From the IMG/VR virus record IMGVR_UViG_2617270948_000004: 17,167 nt of DNA; one strand, 5' to 3'. Below the pieces are notes generated by a model. It had not been told where the DNA came from. It saw only the letters and a list, made by a program, of their open reading frames with translations, and made no database searches. Made by a program: the position numbers and the translations under genes. Origin of the DNA: a virus. Taxonomy: Duplodnaviria; Heunggongvirae; Uroviricota; Caudoviricetes. Shown here piece after piece: positions 8,685 through 16,015 of the stretch (its first letter is position 1; each line of letters starts with the position of its first letter).

Positions 8685-8893
8685 TGCGATACCTTGAACA
8701 TATCACCACCGACGGCGAACGCTGGGATAATCTGGCATGGCATTACTACGGTGATGCACTGGCTTACGAACGCATTATCGCCGCCAATCCACATGTCGCC
8801 ATTTATCCGGTACTGCCTTCCGGTATTCAGCTCATTATTCCAGTCATTTCCGTCAACAAAACCGTATCGGAGATCCCACCATGGCTGAGATAA
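8684..8893 (+). CDS. Tail protein X (P2 gpX-like, LysM-like fold)
   Basis: 69 aa, MRYLEHITTDGERWDNLAWHYYGD...AANPHV, parallel to P2 gpX (YYGRTEGVVETVLAANPGL) as recalled. Start overlaps the preceding stop (TAATG). Confidence 0.75.
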   Translation: MRYLEHITTDGERWDNLAWHYYGDALAYERIIAANPHVAIYPVLPSGIQLIIPVISVNKTVSEIPPWLR

Positions 8894-9921
8894 GCGTAAC
8901 TGGCGGCGTCTTTGCCACGCTCGCGCCCATTTTTACCCTCTGGTATGGGCATAAAGATATCACTTATGACATCACGCCCTATGTCACCAGTATCAGTTAT
9001 CACGACAGTATTAAAAACGAGTCGGATACCATCGCGATTACACTGGATGACACCGATGGACGCTGGATAAAAGAGTGGTATCCCGGCAAAGGCGATACGC
9101 TGGCGCTGCACATGGGTTATCAGGGGGAAAAACTGCTCGATTGTGGTCAATATATCATTGATAAAATTGATATTTCAGCACCACCTTCCACGGTAAATAT
9201 TGATGGCATCGCCACTTCCGTCAATCAGGCGCTGCGCACCCGTAATAGTCAGGGCTTTGAAGAGACAACGCTTTCAGCCATCGCCAGCCGTATCGCGCAA
9301 ACTCACGGCCTGACGCTGGTGGGCAAAATCGAGCCTCTGACAATTGACCGGGTAACACAGTACGGCGAAACCGATGTTGGATTTCTCAAACGCCTGGCCA
9401 GCGAATATGGCTATGCGGTAAAGGTGACCACCAAAGAGCTGATTTTTTCGCATTTACCCACGCTGCGCTGCCTGGCGCCGGTGAAAAAGATCGACCGCAA
9501 AGACGTTTCGCATTTCACCTTCAAAGATACCATTAACCGTATCTACAAAAACGCCACAGTACAGCATCAAAATAGTAAGAAAAAAGAACTGGTTATCTAC
9601 ACTCACGACAGCCAGCAAAAGCCGTCTGCCCGTGGAGTCTGCACCAGTGCCGACACGCTAAAACTGAACAGTCGGGTGCCGGACGTTGGCGCAGCGCAGG
9701 CAAAGGCCAACGCCGCGCTCGACAGCCACAACGAATATCAACAAACCGGAACGCTCAGGATGATGGGCTGCCCGGAACTGACGGCAGGCAATAAAATCGA
9801 GCTAACCGATTTTGGTGTGCTTTCCGGTCAGTGGCTGATTGATAAATCTACTCACAGTTTTGTGCGCAGTGGCTATACCACTGAAATCGACATTTCACGC
9901 GGGCCAGCGACCAGCCAGTAA
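8881..9921 (+). CDS. Tail/baseplate hub protein (P2 gpD-like late control protein D / Mu P-like)
   Basis: 346 aa, overlapping the gpX-like gene; size and position are typical of gpD. Confidence 0.8.
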   Translation: MAEISVTGGVFATLAPIFTLWYGHKDITYDITPYVTSISYHDSIKNESDTIAITLDDTDGRWIKEWYPGKGDTLALHMGYQGEKLLDCGQYIIDKIDISAPPSTVNIDGIATSVNQALRTRNSQGFEETTLSAIASRIAQTHGLTLVGKIEPLTIDRVTQYGETDVGFLKRLASEYGYAVKVTTKELIFSHLPTLRCLAPVKKIDRKDVSHFTFKDTINRIYKNATVQHQNSKKKELVIYTHDSQQKPSARGVCTSADTLKLNSRVPDVGAAQAKANAALDSHNEYQQTGTLRMMGCPELTAGNKIELTDFGVLSGQWLIDKSTHSFVRSGYTTEIDISRGPATSQ

Positions 9922-9930
9922 GGAGGCAAT

Positions 9931-10632
9931 ATGAAAGGAGTAACACGGCAAACGGGGATTATCAGCGATATTGACGAAACCAGCGTTCGGGTGCGGGTCA
10001 CGCTACCAGAGTGTGACAATCTGAAGAGTAACTGGCTTGCGGTGCTGCAGCGCAATTCTCAGGACAATAAAGACTACTGGCTACCGGATATGGGAGAGCA
10101 GGTGGAAGTTCTGCTGGATGATAACGGTGAAGATGGAGTAGTGCTGGGCGCAGTATATTCAACGGTAGATACCGCGCCAGTAGCATCGCGCGATAAAAGG
10201 TATGTCCAGTTTTCCGATGGCGCAGCGTTTGAATATGACCGCAGCACCCACCAGCTTACGATTAATGGCGGCATTGAAAAAATCGTGATTGAGGTTATCG
10301 ACCATACCCGCCTGACATCGCCCAACGTTGAGGTTAAAGCCCAACACGTCACCGTGACTTCCGACACTGTTGATGTGAAAGCCACCGATGTCAGCATTGA
10401 AGCCAGTAAGGTGGATGTTAAAGCGATGACTGTAACGGTAGACGCACCGCTCAGTACCTTTACCGGCAACGTCACGGTGATGAAAAAACTGACCTGGCTG
10501 GGTGGCATGGCAGGAAGTGGAGGCATCGGTAATGCCGCCACGATAACCGGCAATGTCAACGTGATTGGTAACGTGCAGGCCAGCGGCACATTGCAGGACA
10601 GCGGTGGCAACTCCAACCACCATTCACACTGA
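9931..10632 (+). CDS. Baseplate central spike protein (P2 gpV-like / Mu Q-like)
   Basis: 233 aa with strong AAGGAGG RBS. The segment QFSDGAAFEYDRSTHQLTING parallels P2 gpV RFPDGAVIEYEPETSALTVSG. Beta-helical V/T-rich repeats and a His-rich C-terminal tip (NSNHHSH), consistent with a metal-binding spike apex. Confidence 0.85.
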   Translation: MKGVTRQTGIISDIDETSVRVRVTLPECDNLKSNWLAVLQRNSQDNKDYWLPDMGEQVEVLLDDNGEDGVVLGAVYSTVDTAPVASRDKRYVQFSDGAAFEYDRSTHQLTINGGIEKIVIEVIDHTRLTSPNVEVKAQHVTVTSDTVDVKATDVSIEASKVDVKAMTVTVDAPLSTFTGNVTVMKKLTWLGGMAGSGGIGNAATITGNVNVIGNVQASGTLQDSGGNSNHHSH

Positions 10633-10637
10633 CTTTT

Positions 10638-10667
10638 AACCCGCCTGATGGCGGGGTTTCTCTTTTT
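10638..10667 (+). terminator. Rho-independent terminator-like hairpin after the spike gene
   Basis: GC-rich stem (CCCGCC / GGCGGG) with 4-nt loop TGAT, followed by the T-rich run TTTCTCTTTTT, 6 nt after the gpV stop. Confidence 0.55.
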
Positions 10668-10730
10668 AATCAACCAGTTTTCTAAACCGCTTTAATATCT
10701 CCTCCGCCTGTTCAGGGCGAAAATGCCCTC

Positions 10731-11090
10731 ATGAACACGAAAACACGCCCCTCTACGCTGCACTGGCAACCCGCCTTGCAGCGGCCTGAAGAATACGTCT
10801 GCGGACTGGATGATATTCACCAGGCAATACACATCATTCTGCGCACACCGCGCGGCAGTGATCCCCACAGACCGCTGTTTGGTAGCAACTTGTGGCACTA
10901 CATCGATTATCCCATCGAGCGGGCGATCCCGCATGTGGTACGGGAGTCTGTAGAGGCCATTCGCCAGTGGGAAGCGCGCTGCCGGTTGCTGAAGGTGACA
11001 CCGGTAATCGACGGGGAACATCTGACGTTACGTGTGCAATGGCGCGCCGCTGACGGCGTAATCAACTCAACGGAGGTGTTATGGCGATAG
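10731..11090 (+). CDS. Baseplate wedge protein (P2 gpW-like, GPW/gp25 family)
   Basis: 119 aa; the motif IHQAIHIILRTPRGSDPHRPLFGSNL parallels P2 gpW ISQSIGDILRTPVGSRVMRRDYGSLL. Confidence 0.8.
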   Translation: MNTKTRPSTLHWQPALQRPEEYVCGLDDIHQAIHIILRTPRGSDPHRPLFGSNLWHYIDYPIERAIPHVVRESVEAIRQWEARCRLLKVTPVIDGEHLTLRVQWRAADGVINSTEVLWR

Positions 11091-12196
11091 CCGAACCCAA
11101 TTTTATTGACCGCGATCCTGCGCAAATTACCAGCGAGATGATTGCGCAGTACGAAGATGCCAGCGGCAAAAAGCTCTACCCGGCACAGGCCGAGCGGTTG
11201 CTGATTGACCTTTTTGCCTATCGTGAAAACCTTGTACGCATCGCCATTCAGGAAGCGGCGAAACAGAACCTGGTCGCGTATTCCCGCGCGCCAATGCTGG
11301 ATTATTTAGGGGAACTGGTGGGCGTTCACCGCTTACCTGCGCAGCCAGCAAAAACGACGTTGCAGTTTTCGGTAGTCAATGCGTATACAAGCAACATCCT
11401 GATCCCCCAAGGAACACGAGCCAGCGCCTCTGACAGCGTGATGTTTGCTACCGATGAAGATGTTCTGATTCCGGCGGGAAGTTTGCATATCGCCGTTCCC
11501 GCCACCAGTCTGACAACAGGCGAAGCGGGCAATGGCTGGCAGCCTGCACAAATTAGCGCCCTTGTTGACAGGATTGGTTATTACGATATCAACGTAACCA
11601 ACCTGACTGCTTCAACGGGCGGCTGCGGTGAAGAGAGTGATGACGCACTGCGCCAACGGATCCAACTGGCGCCGGAAAGTTTCAGTAATGCGGGTAGCTA
11701 TGGTGCCTACCGCTTTCATACGTTTTCCGTAAGCCAGTCGATTATTGACGTTGCGGTCCTGGGGCCGGACGAAGGATTACCAGAAGGCTGCGTGGAGATC
11801 TACCCGCTAACGCTGAATGGTCTGCCGGGCGTGGAACTGCTCGCGCAAATTGAACTGGAGGTTAGTAAGGAGAAAAAACGTCCGCTGACCGACAAAGTAA
11901 GTGCGAAATGCGCCGTTAGGGTGCCGTATGAGATCCGTGCGCAGCTCACACTGTTTACCACTGCCGATCAGGAGACAACGCTGGCTGCGGCGCGTAAAGC
12001 AATTAGCCTCTGGACGCAACAGCGGCAGACACATCTGGGACAGGACATTGTGCCAAACCAGATAATCAAAGTATTGCAGGTCGATGGCGTCTATGACGTT
12101 GTGCTGAACATGCCCACAAAACGTATTTTGCGGGCGCATGAGTGGGCGGAATGCACCGCGATAGACGTCACGATTGCCGGAGTCAGCGATGGATAA
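11081..12196 (+). CDS. Baseplate protein J (P2 gpJ-like / Mu gp47-like)
   Basis: 371 aa, overlapping the gpW end; size, position and overall similarity to P2 gpJ. Confidence 0.85.
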   Translation: MAIAEPNFIDRDPAQITSEMIAQYEDASGKKLYPAQAERLLIDLFAYRENLVRIAIQEAAKQNLVAYSRAPMLDYLGELVGVHRLPAQPAKTTLQFSVVNAYTSNILIPQGTRASASDSVMFATDEDVLIPAGSLHIAVPATSLTTGEAGNGWQPAQISALVDRIGYYDINVTNLTASTGGCGEESDDALRQRIQLAPESFSNAGSYGAYRFHTFSVSQSIIDVAVLGPDEGLPEGCVEIYPLTLNGLPGVELLAQIELEVSKEKKRPLTDKVSAKCAVRVPYEIRAQLTLFTTADQETTLAAARKAISLWTQQRQTHLGQDIVPNQIIKVLQVDGVYDVVLNMPTKRILRAHEWAECTAIDVTIAGVSDG

Positions 12197-12905
12197 ATTG
12201 CTGCCGCCACCACCGCTTGCCAGCGATGAGCGTTTTTCAACTCTGGCAAATATCGCCGCCGAGCGTTTTGCCCAACTCGATCTGACGGCGTTGATGGTTT
12301 ATCTGGTAGACCTGGTTGATGCTTCGGCATTACCTGCCCTTGCAGAACAATTTCACGTTCAGGGGCTGGAAGGTTGGTTATTTACCACTGATGAACGGGA
12401 GAAGCGAGAGTTAATTAAGCAAGCCATTGAGCTGCATAAATATAAAGGAACGATTTGGGCGGTACGGCGGGTACTGGAAATACTTTCTCTACCAGGAACT
12501 ATTTCAGAATGGTTTGAATATGAGGGGAAGGCTTATTTTTTTAAGGTTGATATTACACTAGAGGAAAAAGGATTAAATGAAGATGATTTTAATGCACTTA
12601 TCGCATTAATTCACGAATATAAAAATGTTCGTTCAAAACTTGAAAGCATTACCATCTGGCTTATTAACCAAAGTCAAATACCGGTTATTGGCAGCGCAAT
12701 CCAGGGCGGGGAGGTTATTACTGTATTACCCCCTATTGCGGAAAGTATTTGCCAGTCATCGACACTATTTTTAGCGACAGGTTACTGTGTTGAGGAATAC
12801 ATAAATCTCTTTCCGTATCAACCTGATCGCATTACACAATCCCAACCGATTCATGTCGGCACAGGATACTGGAGTACCGAAATTATGTCTGTATACCCGG
12901 AGTAA
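12189..12905 (+). CDS. Tail protein I (P2 gpI-like)
   Basis: ATG at 12189 overlaps the gpJ stop (the track start at 12174 is TTG). The motif HKYKGTIWAVRRVLEIL parallels P2 gpI HCHKGTIGAIRRVVEPL. The C-terminal half is markedly AT-rich. Confidence 0.8.
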   Translation: MDKLLPPPPLASDERFSTLANIAAERFAQLDLTALMVYLVDLVDASALPALAEQFHVQGLEGWLFTTDEREKRELIKQAIELHKYKGTIWAVRRVLEILSLPGTISEWFEYEGKAYFFKVDITLEEKGLNEDDFNALIALIHEYKNVRSKLESITIWLINQSQIPVIGSAIQGGEVITVLPPIAESICQSSTLFLATGYCVEEYINLFPYQPDRITQSQPIHVGTGYWSTEIMSVYPE

Positions 12906-12907
12906 AT

Positions 12908-14404
12908 ATGGCAAGTGAATTTTTTACAATATTAACCAGCGCAGGCAAATCAAAAATTGCCTCTGCGCTGGCGGAGCAAAAACAGATCCGCCTACAAACG
13001 ATGGTAGTCGGCGATGGCAATGGTCATTATGTCGAGCCGACAGAAAGTCAGACCAAAGTTGTGCATGAAGTCTGGCGTGGGCAACTAAATACCTTAAAGA
13101 TTGCGCCTGATAATCCAGCCTGGGTTATCGCAGAGACTATTATTCCTGAACAAGTAGGTGGCTGGTACGTCCGCGAGGTTGGGCTACTGGATGCTGACGG
13201 CACGCTAGTAGCTATTGGCAAATTTCCGGAAACCTATAAACCGCTATTACCTACAGGCGCCAGTAAGCAAATTGTTATTCGCGCGGTTATGGAAGTGACC
13301 AATGCTGACGCGGTGACGCTTTTGATCGACCCTTCAGTCGTTATGGCAACCAGGGAGTATGTCGATGACGCGCTGAAAACACATCAGCAATCACGAAATC
13401 ATCCTGATGCGACGCTGACACAAAAAGGTTTTACACAGCTGAGCAATGCGACTAATAGCGATGATGAGACTAAAGCAGCCACGCCAAAAGCGGTAAAAAC
13501 GGCATATGACCTGGCAAATAGTAAAGCCGCCACTAGTCATGCTCATGCCTGGAATCAGATTACTGGTATCCCTGACGGTACGCTGACGCAGAAAGGGATC
13601 GTTAAACTTAACAACACGACAAATAGCGCCAGTACGACGGAAGCTGCAACGCCAAGTGCGGTTAAGGCAGTGTATGACCTGGCAAATAGTAAAGCCGCCA
13701 CTAGTCATATTCATGCCTGGAATCAGATTACCGGTATCCCTGATGGTACGCTGACGCAGAAAGGAGTCGTTAAACTTAACAACACGACAAATAGCACCAG
13801 TTCGACGGAAGCTGCAACACCAAGTGCGGTTAAGGCGGTGTATGACCTTGCTAATGGCAAGGCTTCGGCAAGTCATACGCACGCATGGGAGCAGATTACC
13901 AACATTCCCGACGCAACTCTTGGTAAGAAAGGAATTGTTCAGCTAAGCAGTATCGTCCCTAGTACCAGTACAACAGAAGCAGCAACGCCATACTCAGTTA
14001 AGGTTGCCTATGACCTTGCGAACACTAAAGCTCCGGCAAGCCATGCTCATCCATGGAATCAAATTACTGGTATCCCAGACGGTACGCTGACGCAAAAAGG
14101 GATTGTGAAGCTTAATAACACAACAAACAGCACCAGTACGACAGAGGCAGCGACACCCAGTGCGGTGAAGGCAGCAATGGACAAAGCAAATACAGCGTTG
14201 AATAACACCACTGCATCTATATCAGATGTCAGACTAGGTGCTAAATTTGATCAGGTTATGGCAAAAGGGGGGCGCTATGAATTCTCTGGTAATGTTCTGA
14301 CTGGGTTGAGAATTATCGGAGAAGTAGATGGAGATGATCTCGCTATATTTCGCCCACTTCAGATAAAGGTTAGAAATTCTTGGTATACGGTAGGGCAACT
14401 TTAA
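12908..14404 (+). CDS. Tail fiber protein (P2 gpH-like N- and C-termini with expanded internal repeats)
   Basis: 498 aa with GGAG RBS. The N-terminus (VGDGNGHYVEP...HEVWRGQLN...VGGWYVREVGLLDADGTLVAIGKFPETYKP) and C-terminus (VRLGAKFDQVMAKGGRYEFSGNVLTGLRIIGEVDGDDLAIFRPLQ) closely parallel P2 gpH as recalled; the middle is a repeat array. Confidence 0.85.
   Translation: MASEFFTILTSAGKSKIASALAEQKQIRLQTMVVGDGNGHYVEPTESQTKVVHEVWRGQLNTLKIAPDNPAWVIAETIIPEQVGGWYVREVGLLDADGTLVAIGKFPETYKPLLPTGASKQIVIRAVMEVTNADAVTLLIDPSVVMATREYVDDALKTHQQSRNHPDATLTQKGFTQLSNATNSDDETKAATPKAVKTAYDLANSKAATSHAHAWNQITGIPDGTLTQKGIVKLNNTTNSASTTEAATPSAVKAVYDLANSKAATSHIHAWNQITGIPDGTLTQKGVVKLNNTTNSTSSTEAATPSAVKAVYDLANGKASASHTHAWEQITNIPDATLGKKGIVQLSSIVPSTSTTEAATPYSVKVAYDLANTKAPASHAHPWNQITGIPDGTLTQKGIVKLNNTTNSTSTTEAATPSAVKAAMDKANTALNNTTASISDVRLGAKFDQVMAKGGRYEFSGNVLTGLRIIGEVDGDDLAIFRPLQIKVRNSWYTVGQL
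13406..14210 (+). repeat. In-frame tandem repeat array, about 4.8 copies of a 168-bp (56-aa) unit, inside the tail fiber gene
   Basis: Units begin at 13406, 13574, 13742, 13910 and 14078 (partial). Each encodes D(A/G)TLTQKG-V-LNNTTNS-S-TEAATPSAVKAVYDLANSKAATSH-H-WNQITGIP. Copies 2 and 3 are nearly identical at the nucleotide level; other copies differ mainly at synonymous positions. Confidence 0.9.
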
Positions 14405-15057
14405 TGGGATATAAAAATTTTACACTCTATAAACCAACAGAAAGTATTGGTGGTATTTTTTATCTAAAATCTGATGACGATGTTGATTGGTACGAGGCAC
14501 AAAAAAACTTTTCTACCGAAACGTTAAAAATTGCTTATGACAGCACAGGTAGAATTTGCATTGCGGATACTGATGCCTCAGCGATTTGGCCAATAAATTT
14601 ATCTATCAGTGAGATCTCATCTGAGAATGTTCCTGATGATTTTTCAACAAATGGGAAATGGCTCTGGAATGGCGAAAGTATAATCAGCTCTGTAACAATC
14701 GTAACCGCTAAAAAAAATAAAGTAGAGGATATCAAAAATCAACGCGATACCATCACAACCAACTACATCATCATCAACGACCATCACTTCCACAGTGATA
14801 CAAATAGCCGTATCCAACAGCTTTCACTCACTAAAATGGGAGCGGAGAAAAAAATTCCGCCAGGTTTAATGTGGAAAACTAAAAATGACGGTCTGATCGA
14901 GTTAACCAACGAAATCGCCGCCCAGTTTGAATCGGTAACAATGGATCACGATATGCGCTTATTGGCCAACGCCCAGCACCATATCGCGGCGGTGGAAGCA
15001 CTGGACGATATTCAGGCAGTGCTCGACTACGATTACTCCACAGGCTGGCAACCATGA
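14404..15057 (+). CDS. Tail fiber assembly protein (P2 gpG / Tfa-like)
   Basis: ATG at 14404 overlaps the fiber stop (TAATG). The N-terminal region DWYEAQKNFSTETLKIAYDSTGRICIADTDAS parallels P2 gpG [32 protein letters not shown]. AT-rich. Confidence 0.75.
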   Translation: MGYKNFTLYKPTESIGGIFYLKSDDDVDWYEAQKNFSTETLKIAYDSTGRICIADTDASAIWPINLSISEISSENVPDDFSTNGKWLWNGESIISSVTIVTAKKNKVEDIKNQRDTITTNYIIINDHHFHSDTNSRIQQLSLTKMGAEKKIPPGLMWKTKNDGLIELTNEIAAQFESVTMDHDMRLLANAQHHIAAVEALDDIQAVLDYDYSTGWQP

Positions 15058-15509
15058 GTAAAACCACTGTCTGGCTCGCTTGTTATAAGGGCCGAACAGA
15101 GCACCGTGGTGTTGCCCGACTGGCTGACTGGCTTACCCGTAAAGTGACACGTGGTAGTTATTCCCACTGTGAATTAGCCGTTAAGCATGGTGAAAAGAGT
15201 TACCTTTGTTACTCTGCATCACTACGCGATCGCGGCGTTCGGGGAAAGATAATGCCTTTACCGCCAGATAAGTGGGATATGCTGCCGCTCCAGGCCTGCC
15301 TTCAGGACGTGGAAACGTTTTTCCATAAACATGATGGCAAAAAATACGACTGGCGCGGAGCCTTAGGAATTATCACCGGCAATAAAGAACAGTGCGATCG
15401 CCTGTTTTGCAGTGAATTTTGTGCTGAATTCCTGCAATTAAAAGACAGCTGGCGATACTCACCAAATCACCTGTATGCCTTAGTAAGTAGCTGGCAATCC
15501 CATCCGTAA
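15054..15509 (+). CDS. Hypothetical Cys/His-containing protein; possible permuted papain-fold (NlpC/P60-like) hydrolase
   Basis: 151-aa ORF translationally coupled to the fiber assembly gene (ATGA overlap). Contains a His motif (SYSHCELAV) N-terminal to a Cys motif (LFCSEFCAEF), the order expected for circularly permuted papain-like enzymes. The function is inferred from motif order only. Confidence 0.45.
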   Translation: MSKTTVWLACYKGRTEHRGVARLADWLTRKVTRGSYSHCELAVKHGEKSYLCYSASLRDRGVRGKIMPLPPDKWDMLPLQACLQDVETFFHKHDGKKYDWRGALGIITGNKEQCDRLFCSEFCAEFLQLKDSWRYSPNHLYALVSSWQSHP

Positions 15510-15515
15510 ATCACA

Positions 15516-15540
15516 CCGGGCACAATGCCCGGTTCCTTAT
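15516..15540 (+). terminator. Hairpin with weak T-tract after the 151-aa gene
   Basis: CCGGGCA-CAA-TGCCCGG (7-bp stem), followed by TTCCTTAT, 7 nt after the stop codon. Confidence 0.4.
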
Positions 15541-16015
15541 ATACTCTAAATAGCTTATATGGACACCTCCCCAATGCAAGCACGGTTAGACAGAGAAAAT
15601 GGTCTCTGTGCCTTACCCCGAAAGGGCTGACCGAAAATGGAGAACTATTCCGCTTGGCTATTTAGAATTAGGTATAACATATTTATAAAAAATATCATCC
15701 CAAACAAAGCATTCACTTGAAGAATAAAAGCAATTTTTAAACATAAATATATTGCGTTATAAATCACTTCAAATATAGTTTGTCCTTTTGATACCCTCAT
15801 AGACGATGCGAGGAAACAGCGTGTTTCTATCTCACTCCTCTGGAAAAGTAAGGTTATCACTAATAAAAATGAGTCAGATAACACGTTGCCGCTGGCACGC
15901 CACAAAGATAGAGGCTTAAGTAGGATAACATTCACATACTATGCATATACACTGATTCCTCATTTGCTTATAAAAATTCAATAAAGCAAAATAACAATAG
16001 AAAGGATAATACGTC

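What the first reader, a model, noticed from the sequence alone, without database searches (positions are those of the whole stretch)
15054..15509. Cys/His protein translationally coupled to the fiber assembly gene: possible permuted papain-fold enzyme of unknown role
The ORF start overlaps the Tfa stop (ATGA), so it is expressed as the last gene of the tail operon, at the position where Mu carries gin/mom and where P2-like phages often carry cargo or defence genes. The motif order His (SYSHCELAV) before Cys (FCSEFCAEF) suggests a circularly permuted NlpC/P60-like hydrolase or acyltransferase. It could be a fiber-associated enzyme, a cell-wall or LPS modifier, or a lysogenic-conversion or defence moron.
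Basis: inference. Interest (0 to 1): 0.5.

Follow-up and report, generated by a model that had tools for sequence, protein, structure and literature searches.

The report
Permuted papain-like enzyme coupled to fibre chaperone
The gene after the tail-fibre chaperone encodes a small cysteine enzyme of the circularly permuted papain-like (YaeF/YiiX) kind. It belongs to a large, unannotated or misnamed phage family that almost always sits directly behind, and overlaps, a tail-fibre assembly gene; its substrate is unknown.

Summary
ORF 15054-15509 (+), 151 aa, starts in an ATGA overlap with the stop of the DUF4376-type tail-fibre assembly gene. A strong hairpin follows it.

- A profile of 68 homologs hits PDB 3kw0 (E 1.5e-4) and YiiX 2if6.
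- His38, Cys119 and Tyr98 are invariant in 144 of 144 distant representatives.

Pfam, NCBIfam and PADLOC do not recognise the protein. The PHROG/GenBank label 'enoyl-CoA hydratase' is a misnomer.

The family is large, with 4421 clusters at 50% identity, almost all single-domain proteins of about 150 aa. In about 85% of 155 related loci with an upstream ORF in range, the gene overlaps or abuts that ORF, which is usually a fibre chaperone. It is inherited together with the chaperone's DUF4376 half, while the fibre-specific half is swapped.

Its G+C matches the backbone, not the AT-rich cargo downstream, and dN/dS is about 0.1. It is therefore a conserved part of the fibre module, not a moron. 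The element here is tail-only and looks like a tailocin. Substrate and role are inferred only.

The parts
15054..15509 (+). 151-aa permuted papain-like (YaeF/YiiX-like PPNE) protein. It is soluble, with no signal peptide or TM segment, pI 9.1 and 7 Cys.
15054..15057 (+). ATGA: the start codon of the enzyme overlaps the stop codon of the fibre chaperone gene (translational coupling).
   Evidence: The same -4 overlap, or -1/-8/-11, is found in most related loci.
15165..15167 (+). Codon of His38, the predicted general base at the start of strand 38-45. It lies in the YSHxE motif.
   Evidence: Invariant in 68/68 and 144/144. It aligns with catalytic His49 of 3kw0 and YiiX (PMC3142127).
15345..15347 (+). 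Codon of Tyr98, the predicted NlpC/P60 signature tyrosine (oxyanion / P1 carbonyl), in the motif GKKYDW.
   Evidence: Invariant in 144/144. hhalign places it on YiiX GKPYDF, which holds Tyr115 (PMC3142127).
15408..15410 (+). Codon of Cys119, the predicted nucleophile at the N-terminus of helix 119-126, in the motif FCSE.
   Evidence: Invariant. It aligns with the catalytic Cys of 3kw0 (ICSEF) and YiiX (YCSE).
14404..15057 (+). Tail-fibre assembly chaperone (217 aa). The N-terminal half is fibre-specific and the C-terminal half is DUF4376.
   Evidence: PMC7882524
14707..15030 (+). DUF4376 domain of the chaperone (residues 102-209). This half is co-inherited with the enzyme gene. The similarity to E. 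coli relatives begins at 14731.
12908..14404 (+). Tail fibre (498 aa; Phage_tail_fib N-terminal domain plus fibre repeats). It is the first gene of the fibre-chaperone-enzyme trio.
15515..15533 (+). G+C-rich hairpin after the stop codon. It is the likely operon terminator and marks the end of the conserved module; E. coli similarity ends at 15532.

Best explanation
**What it is (shown).** The gene encodes a catalytically competent thiol enzyme of the circularly permuted NlpC/P60 (YaeF/YiiX-like, 'PPNE') kind.

**Chemistry (inferred from the family).** His38 activates Cys119 at the N-terminus of a helix. The thiolate attacks an acyl (amide or ester) carbonyl held by Tyr98, forming an acyl-thioester. 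Water then resolves it (amidase or lipase) or an acceptor does (acyltransferase).

**Where and when it acts.** Shown: the protein has no export signal and is Cys-rich. Inferred: it therefore acts in the producer's cytoplasm. Its start overlaps the stop of the DUF4376-type tail-fibre chaperone, so it is made late, together with and in proportion to the chaperone.

**Place in the genome (shown by comparative genomics).** It is a conserved component of the fibre / chaperone module of Mu-like, P2-like and some siphovirus-like phages, and of this tail-only element. It is not movable cargo.

**Role (inferred, not shown).** The most likely role is an accessory enzyme of that module, acting on a fibre-module protein. 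It could process or release the chaperone cap, or add or remove an acyl or isopeptide group on a lysine of the fibre or chaperone.
For: **Fold**
- Profile of 68 homologs against PDB: 3kw0 E 1.5e-4, YiiX 2if6 E 0.5. The SH, DxGVR and CSEF motifs are aligned.
- AF2 model: pLDDT 83.6, pTM 0.81.
- BFVD hits include phage proteins named C92/YaeF-YiiX.

**Catalytic residues**
- His38, Cys119, Tyr98 and Trp74 are in 144/144 divergent representatives; Glu40 is in 142/144.
- The Cys/His/Tyr set matches the Cys/His/Tyr of the four-residue PPNE catalytic set defined in PMC3142127; the fourth, acidic residue (Glu64) is not matched.

**Module membership**
- 69 of 79 viral loci (65 at -4) and 57 of 76 genomic loci have the start overlapping the upstream stop.
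- The upstream protein is DUF4376 in 50/80 and 36/76, and phrog_2837 tail protein in 70/80.
- The order fibre-Tfa-enzyme persists at 32-37% identity in Pseudomonas and Acidovorax phages, and in SuMu, Pm86 and Mcat7.
- Enzyme identity tracks the DUF4376 half of Tfa, while the N-terminal half is replaced.

**Not a moron**
- G+C is 47-52%, like the backbone, against 34-38% for the downstream cargo.
- No promoter-like site; no PADLOC hit.
- The downstream neighbours fall into 60 clusters among 138 loci.
- dN/dS is 0.06-0.14.

**Cytoplasmic:** the highest 19-residue hydropathy is 0.14 and there are 7 Cys.
Against: - No experiment or proteome places the protein in a particle or on a fibre. The SuMu paper's main text does not mention it; its mass-spectrometry table (Table S3) was not read.
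- Closely related solved members bind a fatty acid (YiiX) or a free lysine (3kw0). Characterised permuted relatives act on lipids (PMC3142127, PMC12994826). This fits a lipid substrate at least as well as a protein one.
- Adjacency and co-inheritance with DUF4376 do not prove physical or functional interaction.
- The third, acidic catalytic residue of YiiX/3kw0 (Glu64) aligns with a small residue here (Ala55; Ser in most members).
- Foldseek against the PDB found nothing significant, and the Pfam C92 model does not reach threshold.
- The Cys-His distance in the model could not be measured.
- Phage Mu and R-pyocins have fibres and chaperones without this gene, so it is not generally required.
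Confidence: 0.42

Rival explanations
1. **Host-lipid-directed enzyme.** It would be a phospholipase A, a lipoprotein deacylase or a lipid A deacylase / acyltransferase made late. It would weaken the envelope at lysis, reaching the periplasm through holin lesions as soluble endolysins do. Alternatively it would destroy or alter the LPS receptor on the dying producer so that released particles are not lost on debris.
For: - All characterised permuted NlpC/P60 relatives handle acyl groups: YiiX with a bound fatty acid and a hydrophobic S1 pocket (PMC3142127); Tox-Act1 and TseH as phospholipases (PMC12994826); LnsA in lipoprotein N-acylation (PMC7387801).
- In several phages the gene lies between the fibre module and lysis genes.
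- One relative is fused to a lipobox-like extension.
- The fibres of such tails bind LPS, and the neighbouring cargo here is an LPS core glycosyltransferase.
Against: - There is no signal peptide, lipobox or membrane anchor, unlike YiiX (signal peptide) and most PPNEs.
- The conserved partner is the fibre chaperone, not holin, endolysin or spanin, which in this element lie 13 kb upstream.
- Late expression leaves little time to remodel outer-membrane receptors.
Confidence: 0.25
2. **Counter-defence deconjugase.** It would be a cytoplasmic isopeptidase or deacylase that strips host-imposed modifications from tail fibres during assembly, for example ubiquitin-like proteins attached by Bil-type systems.
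For: - 3kw0 binds a lysine in the active site, and an acyl-lysine amidase activity was proposed for it (PMC3142127).
- Bacteria are known to conjugate a ubiquitin-like protein to a phage tail fibre (bioRxiv 10.1101/2023.09.04.556158).
- The gene is co-expressed with fibre and chaperone in the cytoplasm.
Against: - This rests purely on analogy.
- The known Bil target is the central fibre of siphoviruses, not side fibres.
- The nearest structural relatives are lipid-binding YiiX/3kw0, not PPPDE.
- No co-occurrence with Bil systems was tested.
Confidence: 0.08
3. **Moron.** It would be a lysogenic-conversion or defence gene carried as cargo at the end of the tail operon, as with P2 Z/fun or Mu mom.
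For: It occupies the slot between Tfa and the next module where P2 and Mu carry accessory genes. In 12 loci the next gene is the sheath, and in 14 it is a Dam-like methylase.
Against: - G+C matches the backbone, whereas the true cargo downstream is AT-rich.
- There is no promoter-like site.
- The start overlaps the chaperone stop across four bacterial families.
- The gene is retained while the cargo behind it varies: GT4 here, NTase + slipin in E. coli.
- There is no PADLOC hit.
Confidence: 0.07
4. **Peptidoglycan endopeptidase.** It would be a virion-associated NlpC/P60 enzyme that helps the tail cross the cell wall.
For: NlpC/P60 enzymes are commonly murein peptidases, and tail-associated lysins are common in phages.
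Against: - The protein belongs to the permuted clade, whose S1 pocket is hydrophobic, not to the canonical murein-peptidase clades (PMC3142127).
- It is a 151-aa single domain with no tail-attachment or cell-wall-binding domain.
- Seven cysteines argue against an extracellular enzyme.
Confidence: 0.04
5. **Enoyl-CoA hydratase / carnitine racemase-like protein**, as named in PHROG 1128 and several GenBank records.
For: Only the inherited names.
Against: - No crotonase (ECH) Pfam hit in any of 68 members at E <= 1.
- The protein is 151 aa, against about 250 aa for a crotonase domain (own knowledge).
Confidence: 0.01

Closest known systems
[quoted passage not shown]
   Same: - They share the permuted order His ... 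Tyr ... Cys.
- They share three motifs: xSH, D-x-G-V-R and CSE(F).
- The catalytic Cys is at a helix N-terminus and the His at a strand start.
   Different: - This protein is 151 aa, against 186-214 aa.
- It has no signal peptide, whereas YiiX has one.
- The acidic third residue (Glu64) is replaced by Ala/Ser, and an invariant HxE glutamate is present instead.
- It falls below the Pfam C92 threshold.
- It is phage-borne and tied to a fibre chaperone gene.
- The substrates of YiiX and BcPPNE are themselves unproven.
Tox-Act1 / TseH (T6SS effectors) and PLAAT/LRAT: permuted NlpC/P60 phospholipases and acyltransferases
   Different: - Similarity is much lower.
- These enzymes are secreted toxins with immunity proteins, or membrane-anchored eukaryotic enzymes.
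- No immunity-like partner and no secretion context are present here.
PPPDE/DeSI isopeptidases, MARTX RID lysine fatty-acyltransferase, picornavirus 2A(H/NC)
   Different: The similarity is distant, and they occur in eukaryote or virus-of-eukaryote contexts. They are only a mechanistic precedent for a protein substrate.
Accessory genes behind tail-fibre chaperone genes (P2 Z/fun, Mu gin-com-mom)
   Same: They have the same map position, immediately after the fibre assembly gene. In SuMu the homolog sits between Tfa and com.
   Different: Those are independently expressed, variable cargo (own knowledge). This gene is translationally coupled, has backbone-like composition, and is conserved across families.

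Membership tests
Permuted NlpC/P60 (PPNE), YaeF/YiiX-like family | Circularly permuted order: catalytic His N-terminal, catalytic Cys C-terminal | tested here: met
   His38 precedes Cys119. Both align with the catalytic residues of 3kw0 and YiiX (PMC3142127).
Permuted NlpC/P60 (PPNE), YaeF/YiiX-like family | Invariant Cys/His dyad across the family | tested here: met
   68/68 and 144/144 representatives at 50% clustering.
Permuted NlpC/P60 (PPNE), YaeF/YiiX-like family | Conserved signature tyrosine (Tyr115 in YiiX, Tyr127 in BcPPNE) upstream of the Cys | tested here: met
   Tyr98 is in 144/144. hhalign aligns GKKYDW with YiiX GKPYDF. Its three-dimensional position was not checked.
Permuted NlpC/P60 (PPNE), YaeF/YiiX-like family | Third polar (acidic) residue on the strand next to the His (Glu64 in YiiX and BcPPNE) | tested here: inconclusive
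   The aligned position is Ala55 here and Ser/Ala in the family. Neighbouring Ser56 (137/144) or the invariant Glu40 could substitute. LRAT and PPPDE1 also lack a classical third residue (PMC3142127).
Permuted NlpC/P60 (PPNE), YaeF/YiiX-like family | Papain-like alpha/beta fold superposable on solved members | tested here: met
   [not shown]
Permuted NlpC/P60 (PPNE), YaeF/YiiX-like family | Cys-His geometry compatible with a thiolate-imidazolium pair | not testable with these tools
   Model coordinates are not returned. Only the secondary-structure placement is seen: His at the start of strand 38-45 and Cys at the N-terminus of helix 119-126.
Pfam PF05708 Peptidase_C92 (as a database family) | Score at or above the Pfam gathering threshold | tested here: not met
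   No hit for the window protein at E <= 1. Only 1 of 68 homologs hits, at E 0.073.
Enoyl-CoA hydratase / crotonase (name carried by PHROG 1128 and GenBank records) | Crotonase fold / ECH Pfam domains | tested here: not met
   No ECH hit in 68 members. No crotonase among the fold matches.
Canonical NlpC/P60 murein endopeptidases (P60-like, AcmB/LytN-like) | Cys N-terminal to His; export signal or cell-wall-binding domains | tested here: not met
   The order is reversed, there is no signal peptide or extra domain, and there is no NLPC_P60 Pfam hit.
Known anti-phage defence proteins (PADLOC-DB) | Match to a defence-system model | tested here: not met
   0 families at E <= 0.1.

The most novel reading that the evidence does not exclude
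The enzyme is a dedicated post-translational editor of the receptor-binding apparatus. It would be a cytoplasmic isopeptidase, deacylase or lysine acyltransferase delivered with the DUF4376 chaperone. It would either remove host-imposed tags from the fibre (for example Bil-type ubiquitin-like conjugates) or install or remove an acyl group that controls release of the chaperone cap and receptor binding. That would make it the first enzyme known to be a standard part of a phage or tailocin tail-fibre module.
Probability: 0.12. Interest if true: 0.8.

Novelty: new variant of a known kind. Interest (0 to 1): 0.45.

Why it matters
Tail-fibre modules (fibre plus chaperone) are the units that set host range. 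They are the parts swapped when phages and tailocins are re-targeted.

This work shows that in many Mu-like, P2-like and other phages of Enterobacterales, Pasteurellaceae, Neisseriaceae and Moraxellaceae the module has a third, enzymatic member. That member is currently unannotated or misnamed 'enoyl-CoA hydratase'.

If the enzyme acts on the fibre or chaperone, it would reveal an unrecognised maturation step and would need to be carried along in fibre-swap engineering. If it acts on host lipids or LPS, it would be a new late-acting envelope enzyme.

Either way there are immediate gains: the database annotation can be corrected, and there is a clear mutational target (Cys119, His38, Tyr98).

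Tried and rejected
**Searches that found nothing**
- Pfam, NCBIfam and PADLOC scans of the protein: no hit.
- A Pfam scan of all 68 homologs gave only noise, plus one sub-threshold C92 hit.
- Single-sequence phmmer against the PDB: only E 1.5 to 3kw0. The profile was needed.
- The afdb50 library was not available.
- hhalign of the family profile against the single YiiX sequence: weak (probability 13.8%, E 0.002), but it aligned the Tyr and Cys motifs correctly.
- tRNA, Rfam and repeat scans found nothing relevant.

**Ideas rejected**
- The 'enoyl-CoA hydratase' name.
- Rosetta-stone fusions. Nearly all of the best 150 representatives are 132-187 aa, and 4 are longer than 200 aa. The longer ones look like mis-called starts or unrelated extensions.
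- A conserved downstream partner. The next genes fall into 60 clusters among 138 loci: Dam-like methylase, sheath, NTase and others.

**Attempts that could not be completed**

**Literature**
- No paper was found on this phage family.
- The SuMu paper's main text does not mention the protein.
- Anantharaman & Aravind 2003 is not held.

Full report
**Observation**

The window holds a 151-aa ATG ORF at 15054-15509 (+). Its ATG overlaps the TGA of the preceding 217-aa gene (14404-15057) in the sequence ATGA. That upstream gene carries DUF4376 (E 7.5e-12) and Caudo_TAP and matches tail-fibre-assembly PHROGs. It follows a 498-aa tail fibre (12908-14404).

Six bases after the stop there is a G+C-rich hairpin at 15515-15533 (-14.2 kcal/mol, z -3.3). 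An AT-rich gap of about 480 nt follows. The ORF is therefore the last gene of the tail operon.

It is a real gene:
- 82 homologs were found by the word-indexed search.
- 4421 50%-identity cluster representatives have E <= 1e-3, 1901 of them at <= 1e-10.
- dN/dS is 0.06-0.14 against the ten closest relatives.

**What the protein is**

Pfam, NCBIfam and PADLOC give nothing for it. PHROGs places it in phrog_1128 (E 7.5e-57), labelled 'enoyl-CoA hydratase/carnithine racemase-like'. That name also appears in SuMu, Pm86 and Pasteurellaceae records.

The name is not supported. No crotonase domain is found in any of 68 members, and no crotonase appears among the fold matches.

A profile of 68 homologs (alignment A1) instead hits two solved structures:
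- PDB 3kw0, 'cysteine peptidase' (E 1.5e-4).
- E. coli YiiX, 2if6 (E 0.5).

Three motifs line up in these hits: YSH with FSH/YSH, RDGGVR with EDDGVR, and FCSEF with ICSEF.

**Catalytic residues**

Xu et al. 2011 (PMC3142127) define the permuted enzymes (PPNEs) by Cys/His/Tyr plus a polar residue. These are Cys154, His49, Glu64 and Tyr127 in 3kw0, and Cys128, His49, Glu64 and Tyr115 in YiiX.

Allowing for the 19-residue tag in the 3kw0 chain, the alignment puts His38 on His49 and Cys119 on the catalytic Cys. hhalign puts GKKYDW (Tyr98) on YiiX GKPYDF (Tyr115) and FCSE on YCSE.

In 144 representatives clustered at 50% identity:
- His38, Cys119, Tyr98 and Trp74 are present in 144/144.
- Glu40 is present in 142/144.
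- Ser56 is present in 137/144.

The position aligned with Glu64 is Ala55 here and Ser/Ala in the family. The classical acidic third residue is therefore missing. Glu40 (an HxE motif) or Ser56 may replace it, and this point stays open.

In the model, His38 begins strand 38-45 and Cys119 begins helix 119-126, as in papain-like enzymes. The actual Cys-His distance could not be measured because coordinates are not returned.

The protein has no hydrophobic segment (highest 19-residue hydropathy 0.14), has pI 9.1, and contains seven cysteines. YiiX, by contrast, has a signal peptide. I infer a cytoplasmic enzyme.

**Genomic context: linkage to the fibre chaperone**

In 80 IMG/VR loci (95-43% identity), 69 of the 79 with an upstream ORF in range have the start overlapping that ORF's stop. 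In 65 of these the overlap is -4 nt, most likely the same ATGA. In 80 loci from different species, 57 of 76 overlap and about 9 more lie within 10 nt. Those species belong to Enterobacterales, Pasteurellaceae, Neisseriaceae and Moraxellaceae.

The upstream protein is usually a fibre chaperone:

| Locus set | DUF4376 | Caudo_TAP | phrog_2837 tail protein |
|---|---|---|---|
| 80 IMG/VR loci | 50/80 | 13 | 70/80 |
| 76 species loci | 36/76 | 13 | not scanned |

DUF4376 is the conserved C-terminal domain of Mu-type tail-fibre chaperones (PMC7882524; also annotated in the Alteromonas fibre chaperones, PMC10579305).

The order fibre - chaperone - enzyme is seen in several phages:
- Mu-like SuMu, where com and a methylase follow.
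- Pasteurella Pm86 and Moraxella Mcat7.
- Pseudomonas phage pAN and Acidovorax phage AP1, at only 32-37% identity, where lysis genes follow.
- A Ralstonia jumbo phage copy is an exception.

The genes after the enzyme are not conserved. They fall into 60 clusters among 138 loci. The largest clusters include a Dam-like methylase (14 loci), the tail sheath (12) and a nucleotidyltransferase (10); the very largest (15 loci) is an unidentified ORF.

**Mosaic structure**

E. coli complete genomes match the window only from 14731 to 15532. This span covers the DUF4376 half of the chaperone, the enzyme and the hairpin.

Across loci, the enzyme's identity to the window tracks the DUF4376 half of the chaperone:

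| Enzyme identity | DUF4376 half identity |
|---|---|
| 90-95% | 81-91% |
| 73-81% | 70-78% in most loci |
| 55-58% | 62-74% |

The N-terminal, fibre-specific half of the chaperone is unrelated (3-19%) in all loci but one.

The G+C of the enzyme gene (47-52%) is that of the tail backbone (50-57%). The fibre-tip / chaperone-N cassette (36-39%) and the downstream cargo (34-38%) are AT-rich. No promoter-like site lies in 14300-16100.

The enzyme therefore belongs to the conserved frame that flanks the exchangeable host-range cassette. It is not a moron.

**The element**

In Escherichia chromosomes that carry the window's genes, the cluster lies between lysC and yjbD/rluF. It reads: Mor-like activator, holin, SLT endolysin, lipoprotein, Gp37-like protein, sheath, tube, chaperones, tape measure, gpU, X, D, V, W, J, I, fibre, chaperone, enzyme, cargo.

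There are no head, terminase, integrase or replication genes. It is thus a tail-only element, either a candidate R-type tailocin or a prophage remnant.

In the window the sheath gene carries an in-frame stop at 3348-3350. This particular copy may be inactive. The enzyme gene is nevertheless intact and under purifying selection across copies.

**Mechanism**

*Shown.* The fold, the permuted catalytic set, the absence of export signals, the coupling to and co-inheritance with the DUF4376 chaperone, and the backbone-like composition.

*Established for the family* (PMC3142127, PMC7387801, PMC12994826). A Cys-His dyad forms an acyl-thioester, which is resolved by water or by an acceptor. The S1 pocket is hydrophobic. 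Known activities are amidase, phospholipase A and acyltransferase.

*Inferred.* Because synthesis is tied to the chaperone and takes place in the cytoplasm where fibres are folded, I favour a role inside the fibre module (confidence about 0.4). The enzyme would process or release the chaperone cap, or add or remove an acyl or isopeptide group on a fibre or chaperone lysine.

The main rival (about 0.25) is a lipid-directed late enzyme that aids envelope disruption or receptor destruction. It fits the family's known substrates better, but fits the missing export signal and the conserved partner worse.

The remaining rivals rank lower:
- A counter-defence deconjugase (about 0.08).
- A moron (about 0.07).
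- A murein peptidase (about 0.04).
- The crotonase label, which is rejected.

**Comparison with what is known, and novelty**

The protein works like, and by fold and catalytic residues belongs with, the YaeF/YiiX-like permuted NlpC/P60 enzymes. It differs from described members in five ways:
- It is minimal (151 aa).
- It has no signal peptide.
- It lacks the acidic third residue.
- It falls below the Pfam C92 threshold.
- It has a fixed synteny behind a tail-fibre chaperone.

I found no paper describing this phage family. I rate it a new variant of a known kind, of moderate interest. The added finding is the strong, wide linkage to the DUF4376 chaperone and the exclusion of the moron reading. 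The substrate remains unknown.

Noticed in passing
window 1-17167; L172/L173, L002-L007: The whole element is tail-only and lies between lysC and yjbD/rluF in Escherichia. It has a Mor-like activator, holin, SLT endolysin, lipoprotein and a full contractile-tail gene set, but no head, terminase, integrase or replication genes. It looks like an R-type tailocin or a prophage remnant. One literature search (tailocin, Escherichia coli, lysC) found no description.
   Followed up: partly
window 2865-4289 (stop at 3348-3350): The tail sheath gene is interrupted by an in-frame stop codon, which splits it into ORFs 2859-3350 and 3420-4289. The orthologue in L172 is an intact 474-aa protein at 93.9% identity. 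This copy of the element may be non-functional.
   Followed up: partly
window 16016-17167 (+), with the AT-rich spacer 15536-16015: - AT-rich (34-40% G+C) cargo gene for a GT4 lipopolysaccharide N-acetylglucosaminyltransferase (NF012028, 673.8 bits against a cut-off of 618; also PF20706 'GT4 in conflict systems').
- It lies between the tail operon and yjbD.
- It could alter the LPS core, the usual receptor of such tails, and so give self-protection or exclusion.
- It is absent from the 5426 complete E. coli genomes searched.
   Followed up: partly
L001 8793-10717 (E. coli FDAARGOS_497), equivalent to the slot after window 15532: In E. coli relatives the same cargo slot holds a nucleotidyltransferase-domain protein and a slipin-family protein on the opposite strand, instead of the glycosyltransferase. 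The NTase recurs in 10 related loci. It may be a defence-like pair.
   Followed up: no
window ~14731 (chaperone residue ~110): There is a recombination joint inside the chaperone gene at the start of DUF4376. Upstream of it (chaperone N-half, AT-rich) the sequence is unrelated between loci; the fibre tip was not compared. Downstream of it (DUF4376 plus the enzyme) the sequence is conserved.
   Followed up: yes
window 12350-12800: A second dip in G+C (36-37%) lies in the C-terminal part of the gpI-like baseplate gene, just upstream of the fibre gene. It is possibly another mosaic segment.
   Followed up: no
family-wide (PHROG 1128; GenBank AEG42293.1, AWY03337.1 and others): The family is propagated in databases as 'enoyl-CoA hydratase/carnithine racemase-like'. 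This is a misnomer that should be replaced by 'permuted papain-like (YaeF/YiiX-like) cysteine hydrolase/acyltransferase'.
   Followed up: yes
protein positions 39 and 123 (window 15168-15170 and 15420-15422): In distant members each of Cys39 and Cys123 is frequently replaced by a hydrophobic residue (Val at 39 in 37/144; Val or Ile at 123 in 55/144). The two positions may be in contact in the core. Joint variation within the same sequences was not tabulated.
   Followed up: no
P0205: One distant homolog carries a C-terminal extension with a lipobox-like LALAGC segment. This may be a fusion with a neighbouring lipoprotein or spanin-like gene. It hints at proximity to lysis genes in some phages.
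   Followed up: no
L171 (E. coli FDAARGOS_497, NZ_CP033850.1 1826431-1845523): In this clinical strain the tape-measure gene of the same element is split by a 17-kb resistance island that carries CTX-M-15, OXA-1, aac(6')-Ib-cr, aac(3)-IIe and tet(A).
   Followed up: no
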